From positions 245,687-309,686 of the forward strand of contig JAGXBC010000001.1 of the NCBI GenBank assembly GCA_018971305.1: a stretch of DNA of 64,000 nt. The letters are read 5' to 3'. Positions within the stretch are counted from its first letter, which is position 1; each line of letters opens with the position of its first letter. Under the pieces are notes generated by a model, which saw only the letters and a list, made by a program, of their open reading frames with translations, ran no database searches and was not told the DNA's origin. The DNA is from Patescibacteria group bacterium. Lineage in GTDB: Bacteria > Patescibacteriota > Minisyncoccia > UBA6257 > 2-01-FULL-56-20. Both the position numbers and the translations under genes were made by a program. This document shows, in pieces, positions 33,157 to 50,654 of this stretch.

Positions 33157-33534
33157 ATGGCCGAGCATAATATTGTTGGTAAAATTGGTGAAAATTTTGC
33201 CTGTGAATATATTATTAAAAAAGGATATAAGATTTTATATCGAAATTATAAAGAAAAATGGGATGAAATAGATATCATAGCAAAAAATAGAGATGGGACC
33301 GTGGTATTTTTTGAGGTCAAGACAATAAAGAATTATAAGGATAGTGATGATCATATTGTCCCCGAGGACAATATGACAGAATCCAAATTGGCTAAGATTT
33401 CTAGGGCATGTCAGATGTTTGCCGCCAAACATTCAGAATTAGTCATTGAAGATAAGGGTTGGCAAATAGATCTTCTTGCCTTGACAATTAAAGATGATAA
33501 TTGTATAATTAAACATTATGAGAATATCGCCTAA
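33157..33534 (+). CDS. yraN: YraN/UPF0102-family endonuclease
   Basis: GENFACEYIIKKGYKILYRNYKEKWDEIDIIAKNRDGTVVFFEVKT matches the YraN core (GE..A..YL...G..IL.RN.R...GEIDLIA.....LVFVEVK.R). Confidence 0.65.
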   Translation: MAEHNIVGKIGENFACEYIIKKGYKILYRNYKEKWDEIDIIAKNRDGTVVFFEVKTIKNYKDSDDHIVPEDNMTESKLAKISRACQMFAAKHSELVIEDKGWQIDLLALTIKDDNCIIKHYENIA

Positions 33535-42965: not shown

Positions 42966-45068
42966 TTATTTCCCTTCCATCTGTTTTAGCGACAATCCGA
43001 TTCGTCCGTCTTCGTCAGCGCGGATTATTTTCGCCCGCACGAAGTCGCCAACTTTTACGACTTCTTCAACGGTTTTTACATAGCCCTGTTTCAGCTCCGA
43101 GACGTGAATCATTCCGTCTTTGCCTCCGCCCAAATCCATTATCGCGCCGAAGTCCAGTGTTTTAATAATTTTCCCTTCCACGATTTCTCCGACTTTATAT
43201 TCTTTGGTTAGTGCGGTGATTTCGGCGACTGCGGTTTCCACTGTTTTTACATCCGAACCGGAAACGGAGACCGAACCATCCTCCTCAACATCAATCCCGG
43301 CAAGCGCATACTTCTTAATAAGTCCGTTTATCATCTTGCCGCCAGGGCCGATAAGCGAACCGATTTTCTCCGGATTGATCTTCAGCTGGCGGATAATCGG
43401 GACATACTTGGATAATTCCTTTTTCGGCTGAGAAATAACAGATTTAATGAACTGCAGTATCTCTAAACGGGCCTTTTTGGCCTGTTCCAGACCCTTGGCG
43501 AGCATTTCCATTGTTACGCCATCAACTTTTACATCCATTTGCATGGCGTTTACGCCATCGTCCGTGCCAGCAATTTTGAAGTCCATATCGCCGTGGTGGT
43601 CTTCAGGACCCTGAATGTCGGTGAGGACTTTATAATTTTTTTCGTCCTTCATCATCATCCCCATAGCAATTCCGGCTGCCGGTTTTTTTATCGGCACGCC
43701 TGCGTCCATCAAAGACATCACCGAGGCGCAGACCGTTGCCATAGAAGACGAGCCGTTGGAAGACAAGATTTCCGAAACTACGCGAATTGTGTACGGGAAT
43801 TCTTCTTTGGGAGGAATTAATGGTTCAACAGCTTTGCGCGCTAAGTTGCCATGGCCGATGTCACGGCGTCCTGGTCCGCGGAAGCCGCCGATCTCGCCAA
43901 CCGAGAACGGCGGGAAGTTGTAGTGCAACATAAAGCGGCGCTTACCGGTCATTTCCATTGTTTCTATCATCAATTCCTGCCCCGGAGGCGCGAGGGTTAC
44001 AATGCCCAAGGCCTGCGTGTTGCCGCGAATAAATACGGCCGAGCCGTGCGTGCGCGGGAAGAGTCCGATCTCTCCGTTTAGTGCGCGGAGTTCATCCAGT
44101 TTTCTCCCATCAGGACGCATGTCGCGCTCCAAAACATTTTTATGCACGAGGTCGTTTATAGCTTCTTCGAATAAAAAGTCCGCGGCTTTGAAATTCGGTT
44201 CCGGGAACTTTTCTTTAATGTGCGCAAAATAATCGTGCTTAAGCGCGCCGAGCTTACTTGCGTGTTCCTGTTTGTTTTTCTGGTATACTGCTTCTTCCAG
44301 TTTGTCGTTCAAAAATTCCTCAGTGGCCTTTTTTAATTCCGGATCTGGCTCCGAGAGGGATATTTCCGTTTTCGCCTTACCTACTTCCGCGACTATCTTT
44401 TTCTGGAAATCAATAAGGTTGTTGATATCTTTTTGCGCGAGCTCAAAGCCGGCAATAATATCCTTTTCGTCCGTATCGCTGCCTCCGAGCTCTATCATAT
44501 TTATTTTTCCGTAGGAGCCGGCAACGAAGGAGTCGAATTTGGCTTTGCCATCCACAACCTCGGAATTTGTGGGGTTTACAACGAATTTATCTCCTATTTT
44601 AGCCAAGCGGATGCCTCCAACGGGGCCATTCCAGGGGATATCGGACATGGCGAGTGCTGTGGAGGCCCCGATTAGACCGACGAATTCCGGTTCATTCTGC
44701 TCGTCTATTTCTAATACAGTGACGACAACCTGTATGTCGCGGCGGATGCGGTGGTCAAATAGTGGTCTGATTGTGCGGTCCACCAAGCGTCCGGCGAGGA
44801 TGGCGTCTTCGGATGGCCTGGATTCGCGGCGAACGTAGCGGCTGCCGATGATCTTTCCGGCGGCATAAAATTTCTCTTCGTAGTCGACTCTAAGCGGCAT
44901 ATAGTCCGTGCTCGCGTCGGTTTTAGACATTACGACCGTCGTTAATACGATTGTTTCGCCGTATTTAGCAATGACCGAGGCGTTTGTTTGTCCGGCAAGG
45001 TCGGATACTTCTATCGTCAGAGTTTTCCCTCCTATCTCTGTTTCAAATTTTTTGCGTTGTATTGGCAT
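42966..45068 (-). CDS. pnp: polyribonucleotide nucleotidyltransferase (PNPase)
   Basis: Two RNase PH domains, then KH (LIGPGGKMINGLI) and S1 (VGEIVEGKIIKTLDFGAIMDLGGGKDGMIHVSEL). 700 aa. Confidence 0.9.
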   Translation of the reverse strand: MPIQRKKFETEIGGKTLTIEVSDLAGQTNASVIAKYGETIVLTTVVMSKTDASTDYMPLRVDYEEKFYAAGKIIGSRYVRRESRPSEDAILAGRLVDRTIRPLFDHRIRRDIQVVVTVLEIDEQNEPEFVGLIGASTALAMSDIPWNGPVGGIRLAKIGDKFVVNPTNSEVVDGKAKFDSFVAGSYGKINMIELGGSDTDEKDIIAGFELAQKDINNLIDFQKKIVAEVGKAKTEISLSEPDPELKKATEEFLNDKLEEAVYQKNKQEHASKLGALKHDYFAHIKEKFPEPNFKAADFLFEEAINDLVHKNVLERDMRPDGRKLDELRALNGEIGLFPRTHGSAVFIRGNTQALGIVTLAPPGQELMIETMEMTGKRRFMLHYNFPPFSVGEIGGFRGPGRRDIGHGNLARKAVEPLIPPKEEFPYTIRVVSEILSSNGSSSMATVCASVMSLMDAGVPIKKPAAGIAMGMMMKDEKNYKVLTDIQGPEDHHGDMDFKIAGTDDGVNAMQMDVKVDGVTMEMLAKGLEQAKKARLEILQFIKSVISQPKKELSKYVPIIRQLKINPEKIGSLIGPGGKMINGLIKKYALAGIDVEEDGSVSVSGSDVKTVETAVAEITALTKEYKVGEIVEGKIIKTLDFGAIMDLGGGKDGMIHVSELKQGYVKTVEEVVKVGDFVRAKIIRADEDGRIGLSLKQMEGK

Positions 45069-45076
45069 AATTTATT

Positions 45077-45616
45077 TTAAGTATTGTTAATTAAATTTTT
45101 GTATGTTGCCATATCTTGCTCGAGGGAGACGATATGATTGCTCATTGATGTTCTATTAGACCTGATTGATAGATACTCTCTTTTTTCCTGGGGTGACATC
45201 GCTTCTAATTCATTAAATATTCTATAAATTTTCTCTACTTTATCTTCTAGGCCGCTTACATCTATATCGGCTATTCCTTTCTTTTTTATTTTTTGTTTCA
45301 TCACGGCTAATGACATCCTCACCTGATCGACGCGCCGACGGTATTTTTTTATCTCTTCCGGGTCTATCGTTTCGTCCTCGGCTTCTGGTAACCTGTCTTC
45401 TCTTAAATGTCTGTCTAGAATATCGTCGATTTTCTGTCTTTTTAACGATTCAGTTTTAAAATCTTCAGCCTGGGTATCTAGCTCGCTTCCTAACCTTTCG
45501 GATTTAGAAACTTCTTTTGCTTTTGCCAATAATTCAGCTTTATTTTTATCGAGTACTTCTTGCAATTCTTTCTGGCTTAGATTGTTTACTTTTTCTCCGG
45601 GGACTTCTTTATTCAT
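45077..45616 (-). CDS. hypothetical charged coiled-coil protein
   Basis: 179 aa, K/E/D-rich, predicted helical, no motif recognised. Confidence 0.4.
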   Translation of the reverse strand: MNKEVPGEKVNNLSQKELQEVLDKNKAELLAKAKEVSKSERLGSELDTQAEDFKTESLKRQKIDDILDRHLREDRLPEAEDETIDPEEIKKYRRRVDQVRMSLAVMKQKIKKKGIADIDVSGLEDKVEKIYRIFNELEAMSPQEKREYLSIRSNRTSMSNHIVSLEQDMATYKNLINNT

Positions 45617-45623
45617 ACTCCGT

Positions 45624-46259
45624 TTAATATCCTCTCTTAATGATTATTTTGGGTATTTCCTCAATGTTTATGAACTTATCCGCGGCGTCTTGAAGTTTCG
45701 CCGAGGCGCTGCGCTTGAAAGCCGCGACTTCCACGAGCCGGCCGACGCCCCATTTTAAGTAGTCTACAAGGGGCAAATGGTCGCCGTCGCCTGTAACGAG
45801 AATAATTACATCTAGAAAAGAAGACATTCTAATGGCATCTACCGCCATGCCGACATCCCAGTCGGCTTTTTTCATTCCACCCGCATAAACCTGCAGGTCT
45901 TTGACGCGAAGTTCAAGTCCGGCATTCTCCAGCGCCTCAAAGAATGCGGCTTCTGTAGACAATACTGGTGCACCGCGGCGCGTTCCGGCAGTCGGTCTCA
46001 CTGGTTGTTCTATTATCCCCTCGCTTTTTACGACGTAGGCCATAGAACGGATAAGCTGCCTGTCGCCGACAAGGTATTTTATAAGTTCTGAATAATTAAC
46101 TCGGCCGTGGTAGAGGTTTTTCGCGGAATGATAAAGATTGTGGACGTCAACGAAGATACCAACGCGTTGATTGGAATATGAGGGGACAGATTTCATTTGC
46201 TTTTCCGGCGTTGAGGAATTATTACGAATTTGCGAATGATCGGATTTTATTTCGGTCAT
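45624..46259 (-). CDS. NYN-domain (LabA-like) protein
   Basis: VGIFVDVHNLYHSAKN...IILVTGDGDHLPLV matches the NYN/LabA fold motifs (vDg.N.....; ...SgDgDf.p). Confidence 0.55.
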   Translation of the reverse strand: MTEIKSDHSQIRNNSSTPEKQMKSVPSYSNQRVGIFVDVHNLYHSAKNLYHGRVNYSELIKYLVGDRQLIRSMAYVVKSEGIIEQPVRPTAGTRRGAPVLSTEAAFFEALENAGLELRVKDLQVYAGGMKKADWDVGMAVDAIRMSSFLDVIILVTGDGDHLPLVDYLKWGVGRLVEVAAFKRSASAKLQDAADKFINIEEIPKIIIKRGY

Positions 46260-46317
46260 TCGTAAACTCGCAAAGTAATTCTCTATCTGCCGGTATTTTA
46301 GTTTTAATTTATTCGGC

Positions 46318-46584
46318 CTATTTCTTTAAATCCAATTTTTTAATAAGTTTTTCGTATTCTTTCTCGTTGTGTTTTTTGAGATAAGAGAGAAGCTTGCGGC
46401 GCTTGGAAACTATTTTTAAAAGCCCACGCCGTGAATGGCGGTCTTTGGCGTTTTTCTTTAAGTGGCTGGCCAATTCGTCAATGCGGCGGGAGAGCATGGC
46501 AATCTGCACCTGAGCAGAGCCAGTGTCTTTATCGTGAACTTTATGTTCGCCGATTATTTTAGATTTTACCCGTTTGGTAAGCAT
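46318..46584 (-). CDS. rpsO: 30S ribosomal protein S15
   Basis: MLTKRVKSKIIGEHKVHDKDTGSAQVQIAMLSRRIDELASHLKKNAKDRHSRRGLLKIVSKRRKLLSYLKK is canonical S15. Confidence 0.9.
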   Translation of the reverse strand: MLTKRVKSKIIGEHKVHDKDTGSAQVQIAMLSRRIDELASHLKKNAKDRHSRRGLLKIVSKRRKLLSYLKKHNEKEYEKLIKKLDLKK

Positions 46585-46652
46585 TTAAATTATTATTGAA
46601 ATTTTATTATCTTTTATCTAAACAATCAAGTATCGGTTTTTTCTTCTTAATG

Positions 46653-46866
46653 AAAAAGTGAGGGGCCGGCCGCGGGATGATGTTGCGATAATGTCCGCGG
46701 CCGGCAGCCTCTGGGCGGTGATGTGGCCGTATAACCCTATGACTGCCACAGCGACACCGCCCTCGCTCAGGGACGCCCACCCGCACGAAGCGACCCCGAG
46801 AATTGGCGCGGGAGCCCGTGTTTCCCGGCCAAAGTCAAAAAACTAAAGAACTTATCAGCGAGTATC
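46653..46866 (-). ncRNA. candidate structured RNA: a GC-rich ~210-nt element with its own near-consensus sigma70 promoter and a hairpin/T-tract terminator, either an rpsO leader/attenuator or an independent sRNA
   Basis: Minus strand: -35 TTGACA (46893-98), 16-nt spacer, -10 TATAAT (46871-76). The transcribed segment is about 65% GC in an AT-rich genome. It ends in an 11-bp perfect GC hairpin gccggccgcgg/ccgcggccggc (46665-46705) followed by CCCTCACTTTTTC, about 70 nt upstream of the rpsO ATG. Confidence 0.4.
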
Positions 46867-46937
46867 GGTAATTATACGCCTTTTACACTATTTGTCAATG
46901 TCAATGTTTTGCGACAGATAAAGTATAATAAAGGAAT

Positions 46938-47822
46938 ATGTCTGATATAGAGAAATTTCTTAATGATTATTTAGCTTATCTGGAGATAGAAAAGAACCGC
47001 TCGCCGAAAACACGGGAGAATTACGAGCGATATTTGGCGGAATTTTTGAAGTTCGCCAGGATAAAGTCGCCGAAGGAAATCACGGAGAATATCGTGCGAG
47101 AGTTCCGCCTTAATTTGGCGCGGAGTGACCGTAAAAAAATTACACAAAATTATTATATAATCGCTTTGCGTAATTTTTTGAAGTATCTCGCCAAGCGCGA
47201 CGTAAAAGTTCTGTCTCCGGAAAAAATAGAATTGCCCAAAATTCCCGAGCGGCAGATAGAGATTTTGGAGTACGGCGATTTGGAGCGGCTCCTGGCAGCT
47301 CCTCGCGGAGGAGGGTTAAGAAGTTTGCGCGATAAGGCTATCCTGGAAGTTTTTTTTTCCACAGGTCTGCGGCTTTCAGAATTATGCAATTTGTCCAGAT
47401 ATATTGATCTGAAACGCGGCGAGTTGTCCGTTCGCGGCAAAGGAGATAAATTAAGAGTTGTCTTCCTTTCTGATTCGGCGAGAGAAGCGATGCAGAAATA
47501 TATTGCGAAACGGACCGATACTGAAGAGTCTTTGTTTATCAGCTTAACCAAAGCCGGAAAAGGAATGGGAAAGATAACGCAGCGTTCCGTGCAGAGGATG
47601 ATAGAGTCCCGAGCCAAAGAAGCCGGCATCCAGAAGAAAATCCACCCGCACCAGTTAAGGCACTCGTTCGCAACAGATTTGCTTGTAAACGGCGCCGATT
47701 TGCGCTCGGTTCAGGAACTTTTGGGCCACGCCAATATTGCGACAACCCAGGTTTACACCCATCTCACGAACAAAGAGTTGCGGGAAATTCATAAAACATT
47801 TCATGCGCGGAGAAGAAGTTAA
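46938..47822 (+). CDS. xerC: tyrosine site-specific recombinase XerC/XerD family
   Basis: Catalytic region HPHQLRHSFATDLLVNGADLRSVQELLGHANIATTQVYTHL (R..H..R..H..Y). N-terminal SAM-like core-binding domain. XerC versus XerD cannot be resolved. Confidence 0.85.
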   Translation: MSDIEKFLNDYLAYLEIEKNRSPKTRENYERYLAEFLKFARIKSPKEITENIVREFRLNLARSDRKKITQNYYIIALRNFLKYLAKRDVKVLSPEKIELPKIPERQIEILEYGDLERLLAAPRGGGLRSLRDKAILEVFFSTGLRLSELCNLSRYIDLKRGELSVRGKGDKLRVVFLSDSAREAMQKYIAKRTDTEESLFISLTKAGKGMGKITQRSVQRMIESRAKEAGIQKKIHPHQLRHSFATDLLVNGADLRSVQELLGHANIATTQVYTHLTNKELREIHKTFHARRRS

Positions 47823-48869: not shown

Positions 48870-48953
48870 GGTGCCCAGGAGAGGATTTGAACCTCTACGC
48901 CTTTCGGCACGAGCTCCTAAAGCTCGCGTGTCTGCCAATTTCACCACCTGGGC
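48870..48953 (-). tRNA. tRNA-Leu (anticodon UAG), long variable arm
   Basis: Minus-strand read GCCCAGG-TG-GTGAAATTGGCAGACAC-GCGAGC-TTTAGGA-GCTCGT-GCCGAAAGGCGT-AGAGG-TTCAAAT-CCTCT-CCTGGGC-A-CC. The acceptor stem pairs, T-loop is GGTTCAAATCC, anticodon loop is TT-TAG-GA. Confidence 0.8.
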
Positions 48954-48965
48954 AATCGTGGCCTG

Positions 48966-49037
48966 TGCGCGCTGGGGGGATCGAACCCTCGGCCTACTCG
49001 GTGTAAACGAGTCGCTCTGCCACTGAGCTAAGCGCGC
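48966..49037 (-). tRNA. tRNA-Val (anticodon UAC)
   Basis: Minus-strand read GCGCGCT-TA-GCTC-AGTGGCA-GAGC-G-ACTCG-TTTACAC-CGAGT-AGGCC-GAGGG-TTCGATC-CCCCC-AGCGCGC-A. One A:C mismatch in the T-stem. Confidence 0.75.
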
Positions 49038-49041
49038 CGCT

Positions 49042-49830
49042 TCAAGAAAATTCTAACACCATCGGCAGATGGTCGGAAACGTCTATGTCCGGCACGCTGA
49101 AATTTAGCACATTTACGTCGGGAGATACAAATGTATAATCGGCGAACGCTTGGAATTCCGGTTTGCCATAGAATGGAGAGATCTTGCTGCGAGTACGCTC
49201 AATGCCGAATGTCTTAATAAGATTTTTCATGCCTGTGCGTTCTATCATTGCAATGCTTTCGGTGTCGGGCAGCAGATTGAAATCACCGCAAAGTATTTTC
49301 TGGCCCTCTTCGCGCGCGAGAAAGTTTATTATCTTTTGCGATTGTATAAGGCGTTCCGGCGTGTCGGACTTATTTCCTGGCGGATAGGGAAGGCCGTGGA
49401 TGTTTACAATTAACAATTGATTTTCTGGTATCCCTTTTGGTTCAATCCTGATGTATTGAAAATTAGAAGGTTGGCCCTCGGCAAGTTGTGTCGTGTCCGG
49501 CAACTCTATTTTTCTTAGATTTACAAACACGCTGCCGCTTGAGTGCATATGCAGTATTTTGTTTCTAATAAATATTGCTTGTCCTAATGACACATTATGT
49601 TCTGACAATCTGCTGACTTCCGGTGCGAAATGATAATCAAATTCTTTAAGCATAGTTTTAAGTTCAGTCAGGATATCTATCCGTATTTCTTCGCCATCTG
49701 GTTGGATGGATGGAGATTCCGCTATTTCCTGAAAGCAAAAAATATCGGTATCAGCCGATTGCTCCTTGATGAATTTCATGAGCGGTTCATATATCTTTCC
49801 GCCCCAGATGTTTAGGGAAATAAGTTTCAT
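49042..49830 (-). CDS. endonuclease/exonuclease/phosphatase (EEP) family protein
   Basis: MKLISLNIWGG..., DIFCFQEI, GDFNLLPD and SDHLPMVLEF are the conserved EEP catalytic motifs. Confidence 0.75.
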   Translation of the reverse strand: MKLISLNIWGGKIYEPLMKFIKEQSADTDIFCFQEIAESPSIQPDGEEIRIDILTELKTMLKEFDYHFAPEVSRLSEHNVSLGQAIFIRNKILHMHSSGSVFVNLRKIELPDTTQLAEGQPSNFQYIRIEPKGIPENQLLIVNIHGLPYPPGNKSDTPERLIQSQKIINFLAREEGQKILCGDFNLLPDTESIAMIERTGMKNLIKTFGIERTRSKISPFYGKPEFQAFADYTFVSPDVNVLNFSVPDIDVSDHLPMVLEFS

Positions 49831-49840
49831 ATTTGTTTTG

Positions 49841-49912
49841 TGCCCCCGGTAGGAATCGAACCCACATCAACGCCTTAGAAGAGCGTTGCTTTATCCATTA
49901 AGCTACGAGGGC
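49841..49912 (-). tRNA. tRNA-Arg (anticodon UCU)
   Basis: Minus-strand read GCCCTCG-TA-GCTT-AATGGAT-AAAGC-A-ACGCT-CTTCTAA-GGCGT-TGAT-GTGGG-TTCGATT-CCTAC-CGGGGGC-A. Confidence 0.8.
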
Positions 49913-50229
49913 CTTGTTCTTCCCCAATATCCTAACTGAATATATGTTTTTCGTCTATGACAATTAGCACAACGAATGTCGCATTTATTTATTTCTCGCT
50001 CGATAGATTCCCAAGAGTAATGACCGGATAACATTTTCCCGACAATTTTAAATTTATTTTTCTGGTCGCGGTGATCGAACTCCAAAACTATCGGATCTTT
50101 TTCTCCACAATCTATACATTTCTTTGTGGATAGAAAAGAAAACAATTTTGCTCTTACTTTGAGTCGGTGTCTTTTCTGCGCAGCATATAATGCCGCTCTT
50201 TCTTTGTATGGCATATTGTATAAAACCAT
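49903..50229 (-). CDS. small HNH-endonuclease-like protein (CxxC ... H ... CxxCH), wedged between tRNA genes
   Basis: CIDCGEKDPIVLEFDHRD...CDIRCANCHRRKT is a zinc-ribbon/HNH-like arrangement. Its 3' end overlaps the 5' end of tRNA-Arg by ~10 nt. Confidence 0.45.
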   Translation of the reverse strand: MVLYNMPYKERAALYAAQKRHRLKVRAKLFSFLSTKKCIDCGEKDPIVLEFDHRDQKNKFKIVGKMLSGHYSWESIEREINKCDIRCANCHRRKTYIQLGYWGRTRPS

Positions 50230-50312
50230 TCTAACCCAGATTGTTAATATTGCAAAATGGCGTCAGATTTATACACTATCTATATATTCGGGCTTGCCCG
50301 CCATAGCGCGCA

Positions 50313-50383
50313 AGCGCGAAGGCGGGCCGTCGTATACCGGTAGTACGCGTGCTTTGGGAGCACGTAGACTGGGTTCAATTCCC
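50313..50383 (+). tRNA. tRNA-Pro (anticodon UGG), atypical D-arm
   Basis: CGGGCCG-TC-GTAT-ACCGGTA-GTAC-G-CGTGC-TTTGGGA-GCACG-TAGA-CTGGG-TTCAATT-CCCAG-CGGCCCG-A. Acceptor, anticodon and T arms pair perfectly. The D-stem has only 3-4 bp with a G:U pair. Confidence 0.6.
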
Positions 50384-50570
50384 AGCGGCCCGACATTAGA
50401 AACATCTTAGCGAGTATGTCGAGCCTAGATGTTCTTATGTCCCGCAGAAGCATGGCGGATGCGGGACTAATGGTTTTTGCGAGCGCTCTAAATTTTCAAG
50501 ACCAGACCGAGTATAATTAATTTTATCGTACTTGAATAAGGATTTTACTTTCGTTACAATACGAAAAATC

Positions 50571-50642
50571 GCCTGGGTAGCTCAGTGGTAGAGCGCAGCC
50601 CTGAAGAGGCTGGCGTCCGGTGTTCGATTCACCGCCCAGGCA
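50571..50642 (+). tRNA. tRNA-Phe (anticodon GAA)
   Basis: GCCTGGG-TA-GCTC-AGTGGTA-GAGC-G-CAGCC-CTGAAGA-GGCTG-GCGTC-CGGTG-TTCGATT-CACCG-CCCAGGC-A. Confidence 0.9.
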
Positions 50643-50654
50643 CAAAAATAAAAA

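What the first reader, a model, noticed from the sequence alone, without database searches (positions are those of the whole stretch)
46653..46905. GC-rich structured RNA element with its own consensus promoter and a terminator hairpin immediately upstream of rpsO
On the minus strand, a near-perfect sigma70 promoter sits upstream of a ~200-nt segment that is strikingly GC-rich for this genome. The promoter is TTGACA (duplicated as TTGACATTGACA) with a 16-nt spacer to TATAAT. The segment ends in an 11-bp perfect GC hairpin followed by a T-tract, about 70 nt before the rpsO start codon. This is either a transcription-attenuating leader for S15 (S15 autoregulates via its 5' UTR in other bacteria) or an independent sRNA such as a 6S-like RNA. 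The plus-strand ORF 46658..46846 is an artefact of this element. A CGGGCUCC motif recalls RNase P RNA P4, but the element is too short to be rnpB.
Basis: partly seen in the sequence, partly recalled or inferred. Interest (0 to 1): 0.55.

Follow-up and report, generated by a model that had tools for sequence, protein, structure and literature searches.

The report
Orphan small RNA gene beside rpsO
A strongly promoted, GC-rich, roughly 214-nt hairpin-forming transcription unit sits between a recombinase gene and the S15 gene of a Paceibacteria (CPR) genome; it is most likely a strain-specific stand-alone small RNA of unknown role rather than an S15 leader or any known RNA family.

Summary
A 12/12 sigma-70 promoter (46898-46871, minus strand) precedes the most GC-rich stretch of the window. 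That stretch ends in a 15-bp GC hairpin plus U5, 68 nt before rpsO.

No Rfam family matches at any threshold, including S15 leaders, 6S and RNase P. The fold is four consecutive hairpins with no competing antiterminator.

rpsO has its own proximal promoter with a very short leader. This is the norm in 66 related spacers, so the element is a separate transcription unit rather than a leader.

In about 97 related Paceibacteria loci the xer–rpsO spacer ranges from 74 to 2766 nt. Thirty-six loci are compact with no insert, including a close syntenic relative with a 74-nt spacer. The others carry unrelated inserts: small membrane-protein genes, larger genes, or other GC-rich promoter–RNA–terminator units.

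The window's element has no sequence or structural homologue in 1.3 Mb of related DNA, so covariation cannot be tested.

Best reading: an orphan, lineage-specific stand-alone sRNA gene in an insertion hot spot, function unknown. Interest is modest.

The parts
46871..46904 (-). Sigma-70-type promoter. The -35 hexamer is duplicated as TTGACATTGACA (46904-46893). The functional -35 is 46898-46893, followed by a 16-nt spacer and the -10 TATAAT at 46876-46871.
   Evidence: Scores 12/12 in the consensus scan. It is one of only two perfect sites in 64 kb. Sequence read.
46833..46866 (-). Predicted 5' end (TSS about G46866/A46865, inferred from the -10 position) and a roughly 34-nt A/U-rich, mostly unpaired 5' segment.
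   Evidence: Mostly unpaired or weakly paired in the MFE and centroid folds. The TSS position is an inference, not a measurement.
46803..46832 (-). Hairpin H1 (UUGGCCGGGA...UCCCGCGCCAA).
   Evidence: MFE and centroid folds. It forms in every co-transcriptional truncation tested.
46766..46800 (-). Hairpin H2 (CUCGGGG...CCCUGAG). It contains a G.U pair followed by a G-C pair near its base.
   Evidence: The G-U pair favours the minus strand as the RNA strand.
46713..46762 (-). Hairpin H3, with an 8-bp base GGGCGGUG/CACCGCCC and an inner GUGGC.../...GGCCAC stem.
   Evidence: Inverted repeat I5 and the folds.
46653..46711 (-). Intrinsic-terminator-like hairpin. GAGG-CU-GCCGGCCGCGG, a 19-nt loop, CCGCGGCCGGC-C-CCUC, then AC and UUUUU (46657-46653).
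   Evidence: Inverted repeat I2, 11 nt and 100% complementary. The extended stem appears in the MFE. No competing antiterminator was found; a forced alternative is 22 kcal/mol less stable.
46629..46637 (-). Distal copy of the 9-nt direct repeat ACCGATACT. The proximal copy is at 46861-46869, immediately after the -10 box. Together they bracket the GC-rich segment.
   Evidence: Direct repeat D2. Local p is about 0.04, and no comparable flanking repeats occur in other lineages. Its meaning is unexplained.
46592..46629 (-). rpsO's own proximal promoter candidates: TTGATT-17-TAAAAT (46629-46601) and TAGATA-17-AATAAT (46620-46592). There is no Shine-Dalgarno sequence and the leader is very short.
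   Evidence: In 66 distinct related spacers, 45 have a >=9/12 promoter within 60 nt of rpsO, against 3 of 66 shuffled. The median distance from the -10 end to the ATG is 8 nt.
46318..46584 (-). rpsO (ribosomal protein S15, 88 aa). It is the downstream neighbour, not part of the RNA unit.
   Evidence: ORF list and Pfam Ribosomal_S15 on the identical protein.
46907..46917 (-). Conserved motif CTGTCGCAAAA between the element's promoter and the xer gene start. It marks the proximal boundary of the variable spacer.
   Evidence: Present within 140 nt of the xer start in 104 of 121 distinct related loci, in either orientation. It is the only exact copy in the window.
46938..47822 (+). Divergent XerA-like tyrosine recombinase gene. 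It is the upstream neighbour, not part of the RNA unit.
   Evidence: NCBIfam NF040815 scores 245 bits, above its cutoff of 220. The XerC, XerD and integron-integrase models score below their cutoffs.
46658..46846 (+). 62-aa plus-strand ORF, judged an artefact of stop-codon-poor GC-rich sequence.
   Evidence: No Pfam family and no translated similarity in 170 related loci. It is antisense to the promoter and terminator.

Best explanation
The element is a self-contained transcription unit. A consensus promoter drives a non-coding RNA of about 214 nt (about 46866 to 46653, minus strand). The RNA has an A/U-rich 5' tail, three GC-rich hairpins and a constitutive intrinsic terminator.

It lies in an insertion-prone, hypervariable spacer between a XerA-like recombinase gene and rpsO, and so far it is found in only one strain or species.

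Shown:
- the anatomy of promoter, hairpins and terminator
- the absence of coding signal
- separateness from rpsO's own promoter
- absence from close relatives.

Inferred:
- that it is transcribed and stable
- that it acts in trans as a regulatory or protein-binding sRNA, with the unpaired 5' tail or the hairpin loops as the interaction surface.

Its target is unknown.
For: Promoter and composition:
- A 12/12 promoter, rare in the window.
- The highest GC island of the window, flanked by AT-rich DNA.

Structure:
- A stable fold with z = -3.7 on the minus strand, better than the plus strand.
- Mean probability of the MFE pairs is 0.88.
- H1-H3 and the terminator form sequentially, with no competing antiterminator.

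Coding:
- No sense ORF has an SD or respects the terminator.
- No Pfam or translated homology.

Separateness from rpsO:
- rpsO keeps its own proximal promoter with a very short leader, as in 45 of 66 related spacers.

Relatives carry similar units in the same slot:
- The same slot in relatives holds other promoter–RNA–terminator units (L084, L086/L173/L090, L094 with two in tandem, L022, L098).
- One of these families shows an invariant 8-bp closing helix and 8 pairs with compensatory changes.
- A unit of this kind also occurs next to xer without rpsO downstream in L092.
Against: - No homologue exists by nhmmer, pairwise alignment, a covariance model, or profiles of the neighbouring families. 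The structure therefore has no covariation support and there is no evidence of selection.
- All four copies available are 100% identical and come from the same strain.
- No expression data could be consulted.
- The z-score of a GC-rich segment is weak evidence on its own.
- No significant target was found for the 5' tail among 59 start regions in the window.
Confidence: 0.5

Rival explanations
1. Cis-acting, S15-responsive leader or attenuator of rpsO. In this reading, transcription from the strong promoter reads into rpsO unless S15 binds the structured RNA and favours termination. The RNA would be one of the many independently evolved S15 regulators.
For: - It lies directly upstream of rpsO on the same strand.
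- S15 regulators are known to be structurally diverse, narrowly distributed and easily evolved (PMC4137082, PMC5100602, PMC4684408).
- H2 carries a G.U/G-C step of the kind S15 recognises.
- Several sister lineages also have structured RNAs upstream of rpsO.
Against: - There is no alternative antiterminator. The forced alternative is 22 kcal/mol worse, and the terminator's 5' half is free at every transcript length tested.
- The structure ends 68 nt before an SD-less start codon, whereas all characterised S15 regulators encompass the RBS.
- rpsO has a conserved proximal promoter giving a leaderless or near-leaderless mRNA across the clade.
- 36 of about 97 syntenic relatives have no insert, including close relative L175 with a 74-nt spacer.
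- Related units occur in tandem (L094) or without rpsO (L092).
- No Rfam S15-leader match.
Confidence: 0.15
2. Functionless insertion. The segment would be a recently acquired or decaying piece of DNA, such as a remnant of a cassette or foreign fragment lodged in an insertion hot spot, with a promoter and hairpins but no selected role.
For: - It is strictly lineage-specific, with no homologue anywhere searched.
- The spacer is hypervariable, with unrelated inserts in different lineages.
- A 9-nt direct repeat brackets the GC-rich segment, like a target-site duplication.
- Its GC content is very different from the host's.
Against: - A perfect promoter, a well-formed terminator and an uninterrupted series of stable hairpins are unlikely in decaying DNA.
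- There are no terminal inverted repeats, no second copy in the window and no similarity to phage or plasmid DNA.
- Flanking repeats are not seen around inserts in other lineages.
Confidence: 0.22
3. A divergent copy of a universal housekeeping RNA (6S RNA, minimal RNase P RNA, SRP RNA or tmRNA) that Rfam models fail to recognise in CPR bacteria.
For: - Strong promoter, terminator, a size of about 200 nt and high GC in an AT-rich genome are typical of stable RNAs.
- GAAACACGGGCUCC resembles the RNase P CR-I sequence (GGAAAGUCCGGGCUCC). This comparison is from memory of the E. coli sequence and is a lead only.
Against: - No Rfam hit even at E<=10 over 501 nt, and none at gathering thresholds.
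- ARAGORN finds no tmRNA.
- No partner strand exists for a P4 helix, and the RNA is far too short for a bacterial RNase P.
- The fold is four serial hairpins, not a 6S rod with a central bubble.
- A universal RNA would be present in relatives, yet the element is absent from all 170 related loci and the slot is empty in many.
Confidence: 0.03
4. A small protein gene, on either strand, rather than an RNA gene.
For: - ORFs of 62 aa (plus strand), and of 59, 43 and 23 aa (minus strand), overlap the segment.
- In some relatives the same slot encodes small membrane proteins (L019, L021, L075).
Against: - The sense ORFs lack an SD, whereas the relatives' small ORFs have GAGG. The two longest (59 and 43 aa) run through the terminator.
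- The plus-strand ORF is antisense to the promoter.
- The composition is Arg/Pro/Gly-rich, as expected from GC-rich non-coding DNA.
- No Pfam hit and no tblastx similarity.
Confidence: 0.03

Closest known systems
Generic bacterial stand-alone sRNA genes (sigma-70 promoter, structured body, Rho-independent terminator)
   Same: It has the same unit architecture, a size of about 200 nt, an intergenic location, narrow phylogenetic distribution and an unpaired A/U-rich segment that could act as a seed.
   Different: No homologues, target or chaperone context are known. CPR genomes are not known to me to encode Hfq (from my own knowledge, not tested). Nothing about expression was shown here.
S15 (rpsO) autoregulatory mRNA leaders (E. 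coli pseudoknot RF00114; Geobacillus/Thermus three-way junctions; Rhizobiales and other types, PMC4137082)
   Same: It lies upstream of rpsO on the same strand and is a lineage-restricted structured RNA. A G.U/G-C step is present in one helix.
   Different: It does not include the RBS or start codon. It is separated from rpsO by a terminator, an AT-rich 68-nt gap and a proximal promoter. It has no antiterminator, is absent from close relatives and has no Rfam match.
6S RNA (RF00013)
   Same: Length, strong promoter, terminator and poor sequence conservation.
   Different: It has no closing stem, central bubble or terminal stem architecture, no Rfam match, and is not conserved even among close relatives.
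Integron cassette arrays / Xer-exploiting integrative elements (IMEX)
   Same: A tyrosine recombinase gene is transcribed divergently from a fixed site, next to which unrelated cargo is found in different lineages.
   Different: The recombinase is XerA-like, not IntI. No attC-like or duplicated recombination sites flank the inserts. The inserts carry their own promoters and terminators. Mobility has not been shown.

Membership tests
S15 autoregulatory leader | The structure encompasses the Shine-Dalgarno sequence or start codon of rpsO, as stated for all characterised examples in PMC4137082. | tested here: not met
   The structured part ends at 46660 and the ATG is at 46584. The intervening 68 nt are AT-rich with no SD.
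S15 autoregulatory leader | It is part of the rpsO transcript (5' UTR). | tested here: inconclusive
   A terminator and a separate proximal promoter lie between the element and rpsO. Read-through cannot be excluded without RNA data.
S15 autoregulatory leader | S15 recognition determinants: a G.U/G-C motif and a helical junction that mimic 16S h20-h22. | tested here: inconclusive
   A G.U/G-C step exists in H2, but such a step is common by chance. The MFE has no three-way junction unless a fold 22 kcal/mol less stable is forced. Binding cannot be tested with these tools.
S15 autoregulatory leader | Conserved upstream of rpsO within its lineage, or a match to a curated model. | tested here: not met
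   No Rfam hit. No homologue in about 97 syntenic spacers, 36 of which are compact with no insert.
6S RNA | Rod-like fold with a closing stem, a large central bubble and a terminal stem; a match to RF00013. | tested here: not met
   The MFE and centroid show four serial hairpins. No RF00013 match at E<=10.
RNase P RNA (bacterial A/B or minimal type T) | A P4 helix formed by the CR-I and CR-V strands within a catalytic-domain core; a match to RF00010, RF00011 or RF02357. | tested here: not met
   No Rfam match at E<=10. No sequence complementary to CACGGGCUCC occurs in the element (sequence). The length is about 214 nt.
tmRNA / tRNA-like | A tRNA-like domain detectable by ARAGORN. | tested here: not met
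   ARAGORN finds only the five tRNAs at 48870-50643.
Stand-alone sRNA transcription unit | Its own promoter, a non-coding body and an intrinsic terminator, separate from the flanking genes' promoters. | tested here: met
   This rests on sequence only; transcription was not measured.
Stand-alone sRNA transcription unit | A discrete, stable transcript in vivo. | not testable with these tools
Integron / IMEX-type cassette | An integron integrase (IntI signature), or cassettes flanked by recombination sites (attC, or dif/pseudo-dif). | tested here: not met
   TIGR02249 scores 121.8 bits, below its cutoff of 265. The motif CTGTCGCAAAA occurs once. Only a 9-nt direct repeat flanks the insert, and other lineages lack flanking repeats.
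Integron / IMEX-type cassette | Different cargo at the same site next to the recombinase gene in different lineages. | tested here: met
   The spacer ranges from 74 to 2766 nt and holds unrelated RNA units, small ORFs or larger genes.

The most novel reading that the evidence does not exclude
The conserved TGTCGCA(A/C)AA motif next to the XerA-like gene would mark a recombination or insertion site. At this site Paceibacteria would repeatedly gain and lose small self-contained cassettes, each a promoter, a structured RNA or mini-protein gene, and a terminator. That would make it an integron-like or IMEX-like platform for small RNA genes in CPR bacteria, with the window's element as one such cassette.
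Probability: 0.08. Interest if true: 0.65.

Novelty: new member of a known kind. Interest (0 to 1): 0.3.

Why it matters
If the RNA is real and expressed, it adds a strain-specific sRNA to a group of bacteria (CPR/Patescibacteria) whose RNA biology is almost unexplored. More broadly, the xer–rpsO spacer appears to be a fast-turnover site for small transcription units. That makes it a useful place to look for new RNA families: two other candidate families turned up here. It also offers a way to study how reduced genomes acquire regulators. As a single orphan sequence with no covariation or expression evidence, the element does not on its own change any current view.

Tried and rejected
- **Rfam**: gathering thresholds on the whole window, E<=10 on 46500-47000, and both thresholds on relatives' loci. 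Only tRNAs were found.
- **nhmmer** of the element against 172 related loci: only identical same-strain contigs hit.
- **Pairwise local alignment** with the other spacer elements: z<=3.3.
- **Covariance model** of H1-H3 searched over 1.3 Mb of related loci: no hit below E=9.
- **Profile HMMs** of the L086 and L094 families against the window: nothing.
- **blastn** against phages and plasmids, and exact-pattern scans of viral contigs: nothing meaningful.
- **Pfam and tblastx** on the overlapping ORFs: nothing.
- **ARAGORN**: no tRNA or tmRNA in the element.
- **Minimal RNase P and 6S readings**: rejected on structure and on Rfam results.
- **Antiterminator search**: none found.
- **Target-site-duplication test across lineages**: only the window shows a flanking repeat.
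- **Target search** for the 5' tail among 59 start regions: the best hit lies upstream of the NYN gene at -24.5 kcal/mol, z = -2.8. This is not significant after multiple testing.
- **GC-skew check** for a replication landmark at the locus: none.
- **Population variation**: none, because all copies are identical.
- **Literature search** for CPR 6S or RNase P RNA studies: nothing relevant found.

Full report
**Observation.** On the minus strand the window reads TTGACATTGACA, a 16-nt spacer and TATAAT (46904-46871). A GC-rich stretch follows, ending in an 11-bp perfect GC inverted repeat and T5. After another 68 AT-rich nt comes the rpsO start at 46584.
- The promoter scores 12/12. Only two perfect sites occur in 64 kb, and eight sites reach >=11/12 against 1.8 expected.
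- The segment 46656-46848 is the strongest GC island of the window, at 0.70 against a mean of 0.447.
- The perfect stem is extended by GAGG/CCUC, so the U-run begins 2 nt after a 15-bp stem.
- The RNA strand folds to -96.9 kcal/mol (z = -3.7), better than the complementary strand at -90.7 (z = -2.9).

**Anatomy.** From a predicted start near 46866, the RNA of about 214 nt has four parts: an A/U-rich 5' tail of about 34 nt, three hairpins (H1 46832-46803, H2 46800-46766, H3 46762-46713), and the terminator hairpin (46711-46660) with U5.
- Folding successive 5' truncations shows that H1-H3 form at every length tested.
- The 5' half of the terminator is never sequestered.
- A forced alternative, GGCCGG pairing with CCGGCC, is 22 kcal/mol less stable.

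There is thus no antiterminator, and termination looks constitutive.
- The two longest sense-strand ORFs (59 and 43 aa) run through the terminator, and none of the sense ORFs has an SD.
- The 62-aa plus-strand ORF is antisense to the unit.
- None of the ORFs has a Pfam match or translated similarity.

**Organism and context.** The neighbouring proteins place the window in Paceibacteria (CPR/Patescibacteria). The local gene order is a XerA-like recombinase gene (plus strand) facing rpsO–NYN-domain gene–hypothetical gene–pnp (minus strand).

I collected 176 loci from species-representative genomes, metagenomes and exact-protein look-ups. The divergent xer/rpsO arrangement is conserved in about 97 of them, but the spacer between the two genes ranges from 74 to 2766 nt.
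- Thirty-six loci are compact (<=180 nt), holding only a conserved motif TGTCGCA(A/C)AA and the rpsO promoter.
- L175 is a close relative (Xer 82% identical, same xer–PAP2 neighbours) with a 74-nt spacer and no element.
- Other lineages carry unrelated inserts in the same slot:
  - small membrane-protein genes with an SD and a terminator (L019, L021, L075)
  - larger genes (L095/96, L099, L018, L025)
  - other GC-rich promoter–RNA–terminator units (L084; L086/L173/L090; L094 with two in tandem; L006; L022; L098).
- A unit of the L094 type sits next to xer in L092, where no rpsO gene was called or found in the 5.9-kb locus fetched.

**Is it an rpsO leader?** rpsO has promoter-like sites of its own at 46629-46601 and 46620-46592.
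- Across 66 distinct spacers, 45 have a >=9/12 promoter within 60 nt of rpsO, against 3 of 66 shuffled controls.
- The median distance from the -10 end to the ATG is 8 nt, so rpsO is normally a leaderless or near-leaderless mRNA in this clade.
- No SD precedes rpsO in the window.
- All characterised S15 regulators encompass the RBS (PMC4137082). This structure ends 68 nt upstream.

Taken together with the lack of an antiterminator, the empty slot in many relatives, the tandem units and the L092 case, the S15-attenuator reading is poorly supported. It is not excluded, because S15 regulators are known to arise easily and to be very diverse (PMC5100602, PMC4684408).

**Is it a known RNA?**
- Rfam 15 gives no match at gathering thresholds or at E<=10 over 501 nt. 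The same holds for the other spacer elements.
- ARAGORN finds nothing in the element.
- The RNase P-like GGGCUCC motif has no P4 partner, and the RNA is too short.
- The fold is not 6S-like.

**Is it conserved?** No.
- nhmmer, pairwise alignment, a covariance model of H1-H3 over 1.3 Mb, tblastx and profiles of the two other element families find nothing beyond contigs that are 100% identical over 3-5.7 kb. Those contigs are the same strain.
- Phage, plasmid and viral collections give nothing.

By that criterion the element stays unproven as a structured RNA. What speaks for it is the complete and clean unit architecture. In addition, the analogous units in sister lineages include at least one family (L086/L173/L090) with an invariant 8-bp closing helix and compensatory changes.

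**Verdict.** The most likely explanation (about 0.5) is an orphan, lineage-specific, stand-alone small RNA gene lodged in an insertion-prone spacer. Its target and role are unknown.

| Rival | Confidence |
|---|---|
| Functionless recent insertion | about 0.22 |
| S15-responsive leader | about 0.15 |
| Divergent housekeeping RNA | about 0.03 |
| Small protein gene | about 0.03 |

A 9-nt direct repeat (ACCGATACT) brackets the GC-rich part (local p about 0.04). It hints at an insertion event, but other lineages show no such repeats.

The most novel reading not excluded is that the motif next to the XerA-like gene is a recombination site and the spacer a cassette platform. The evidence for this is only positional, and the expected flanking sites are missing.

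Noticed in passing
window 46907-46937 (minus strand TTATTATACTTTATCTGTCGCAAAA); also L004-L176 next to the xer start: A motif TGTCGCA(A/C)AA lies 3-130 nt from the start of the XerA-like gene in 104 of 121 distinct loci, with 57 in one orientation and 47 in the other. It is sometimes duplicated or forms an inverted repeat (L077, L062, L033, L039, L130, L104). It is the only exact copy in the window. It could be an operator, part of the xer promoter, or a dif-like site.
   Followed up: partly
L086:2086-2372, L173:1087-1372, L090:2226-2462 (minus strands): A candidate new structured RNA family lies upstream of rpsO in sister lineages. It has an invariant closing helix GUGUCUGG/CCAGACAC, conserved CUGAGGGGYGAUAAGG and GGGRMAAAGUGG...CCACGCG motifs, 8 pairs with compensatory changes, and its own terminator. 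It has no Rfam match. The CGCUGAGGGGCGAUAAGGCG stretch recalls, from memory, the 16S h20/h22 junction region that S15 binds. This was not tested.
   Followed up: partly
L094:1381-1965 (two tandem units), L006:4391-4830, L097, L092:2262-2461, possibly L028:1-340: A second candidate RNA family has a nearly identical promoter (TTGACAGGATTTGTGG-NNN-TGCTATAAT), a variable 5' domain and a conserved CGCACUUUUACAAGUUU motif. That motif is boxA-like by memory of the E. coli rrn boxA. Covarying 3' hairpins and a strong terminator follow. The family has no Rfam match.
   Followed up: partly
window 42966-46584 (minus strand); L084, L086, L088, L090, L094, L173-L176: A NYN-domain (LabA-like, putative RNase) gene is conserved between rpsO and pnp in this clade. 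The window additionally has a 179-aa protein with no family match. The resulting order is rpsO–NYN–pnp.
   Followed up: no
rpsO upstream regions of 66 distinct related spacers; window 46585-46629: In Paceibacteria rpsO usually has a promoter whose -10 box ends about 8 nt before the ATG, and no SD. This implies a leaderless or near-leaderless S15 mRNA.
   Followed up: partly
L019, L021, L075, L100 (xer–rpsO spacers): Some lineages carry a 45-51-aa predicted single-pass membrane peptide gene in the same slot, with its own promoter, a GAGG SD and a terminator. Examples begin MKRRLRTIGGWVGSGIMLALALVGIGLVSG... These may be small membrane proteins or toxin-like peptides.
   Followed up: no
window 46603-46619 and 46916-46932: A 17-nt inverted repeat (88% complementary) links the -10 regions of the xer promoter and the rpsO proximal promoter (AGATAAAGTATAATAAA / AGATAAAAGATAATAAA). 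The two divergent promoters therefore share an extended sequence.
   Followed up: no
window 33481 (+), 40482 (-), 34512 (+), 29398 (-): These are other near-consensus sigma-70 promoters in the window. The site at 33481 is the only other 12/12 match. What they drive was not examined.
   Followed up: no
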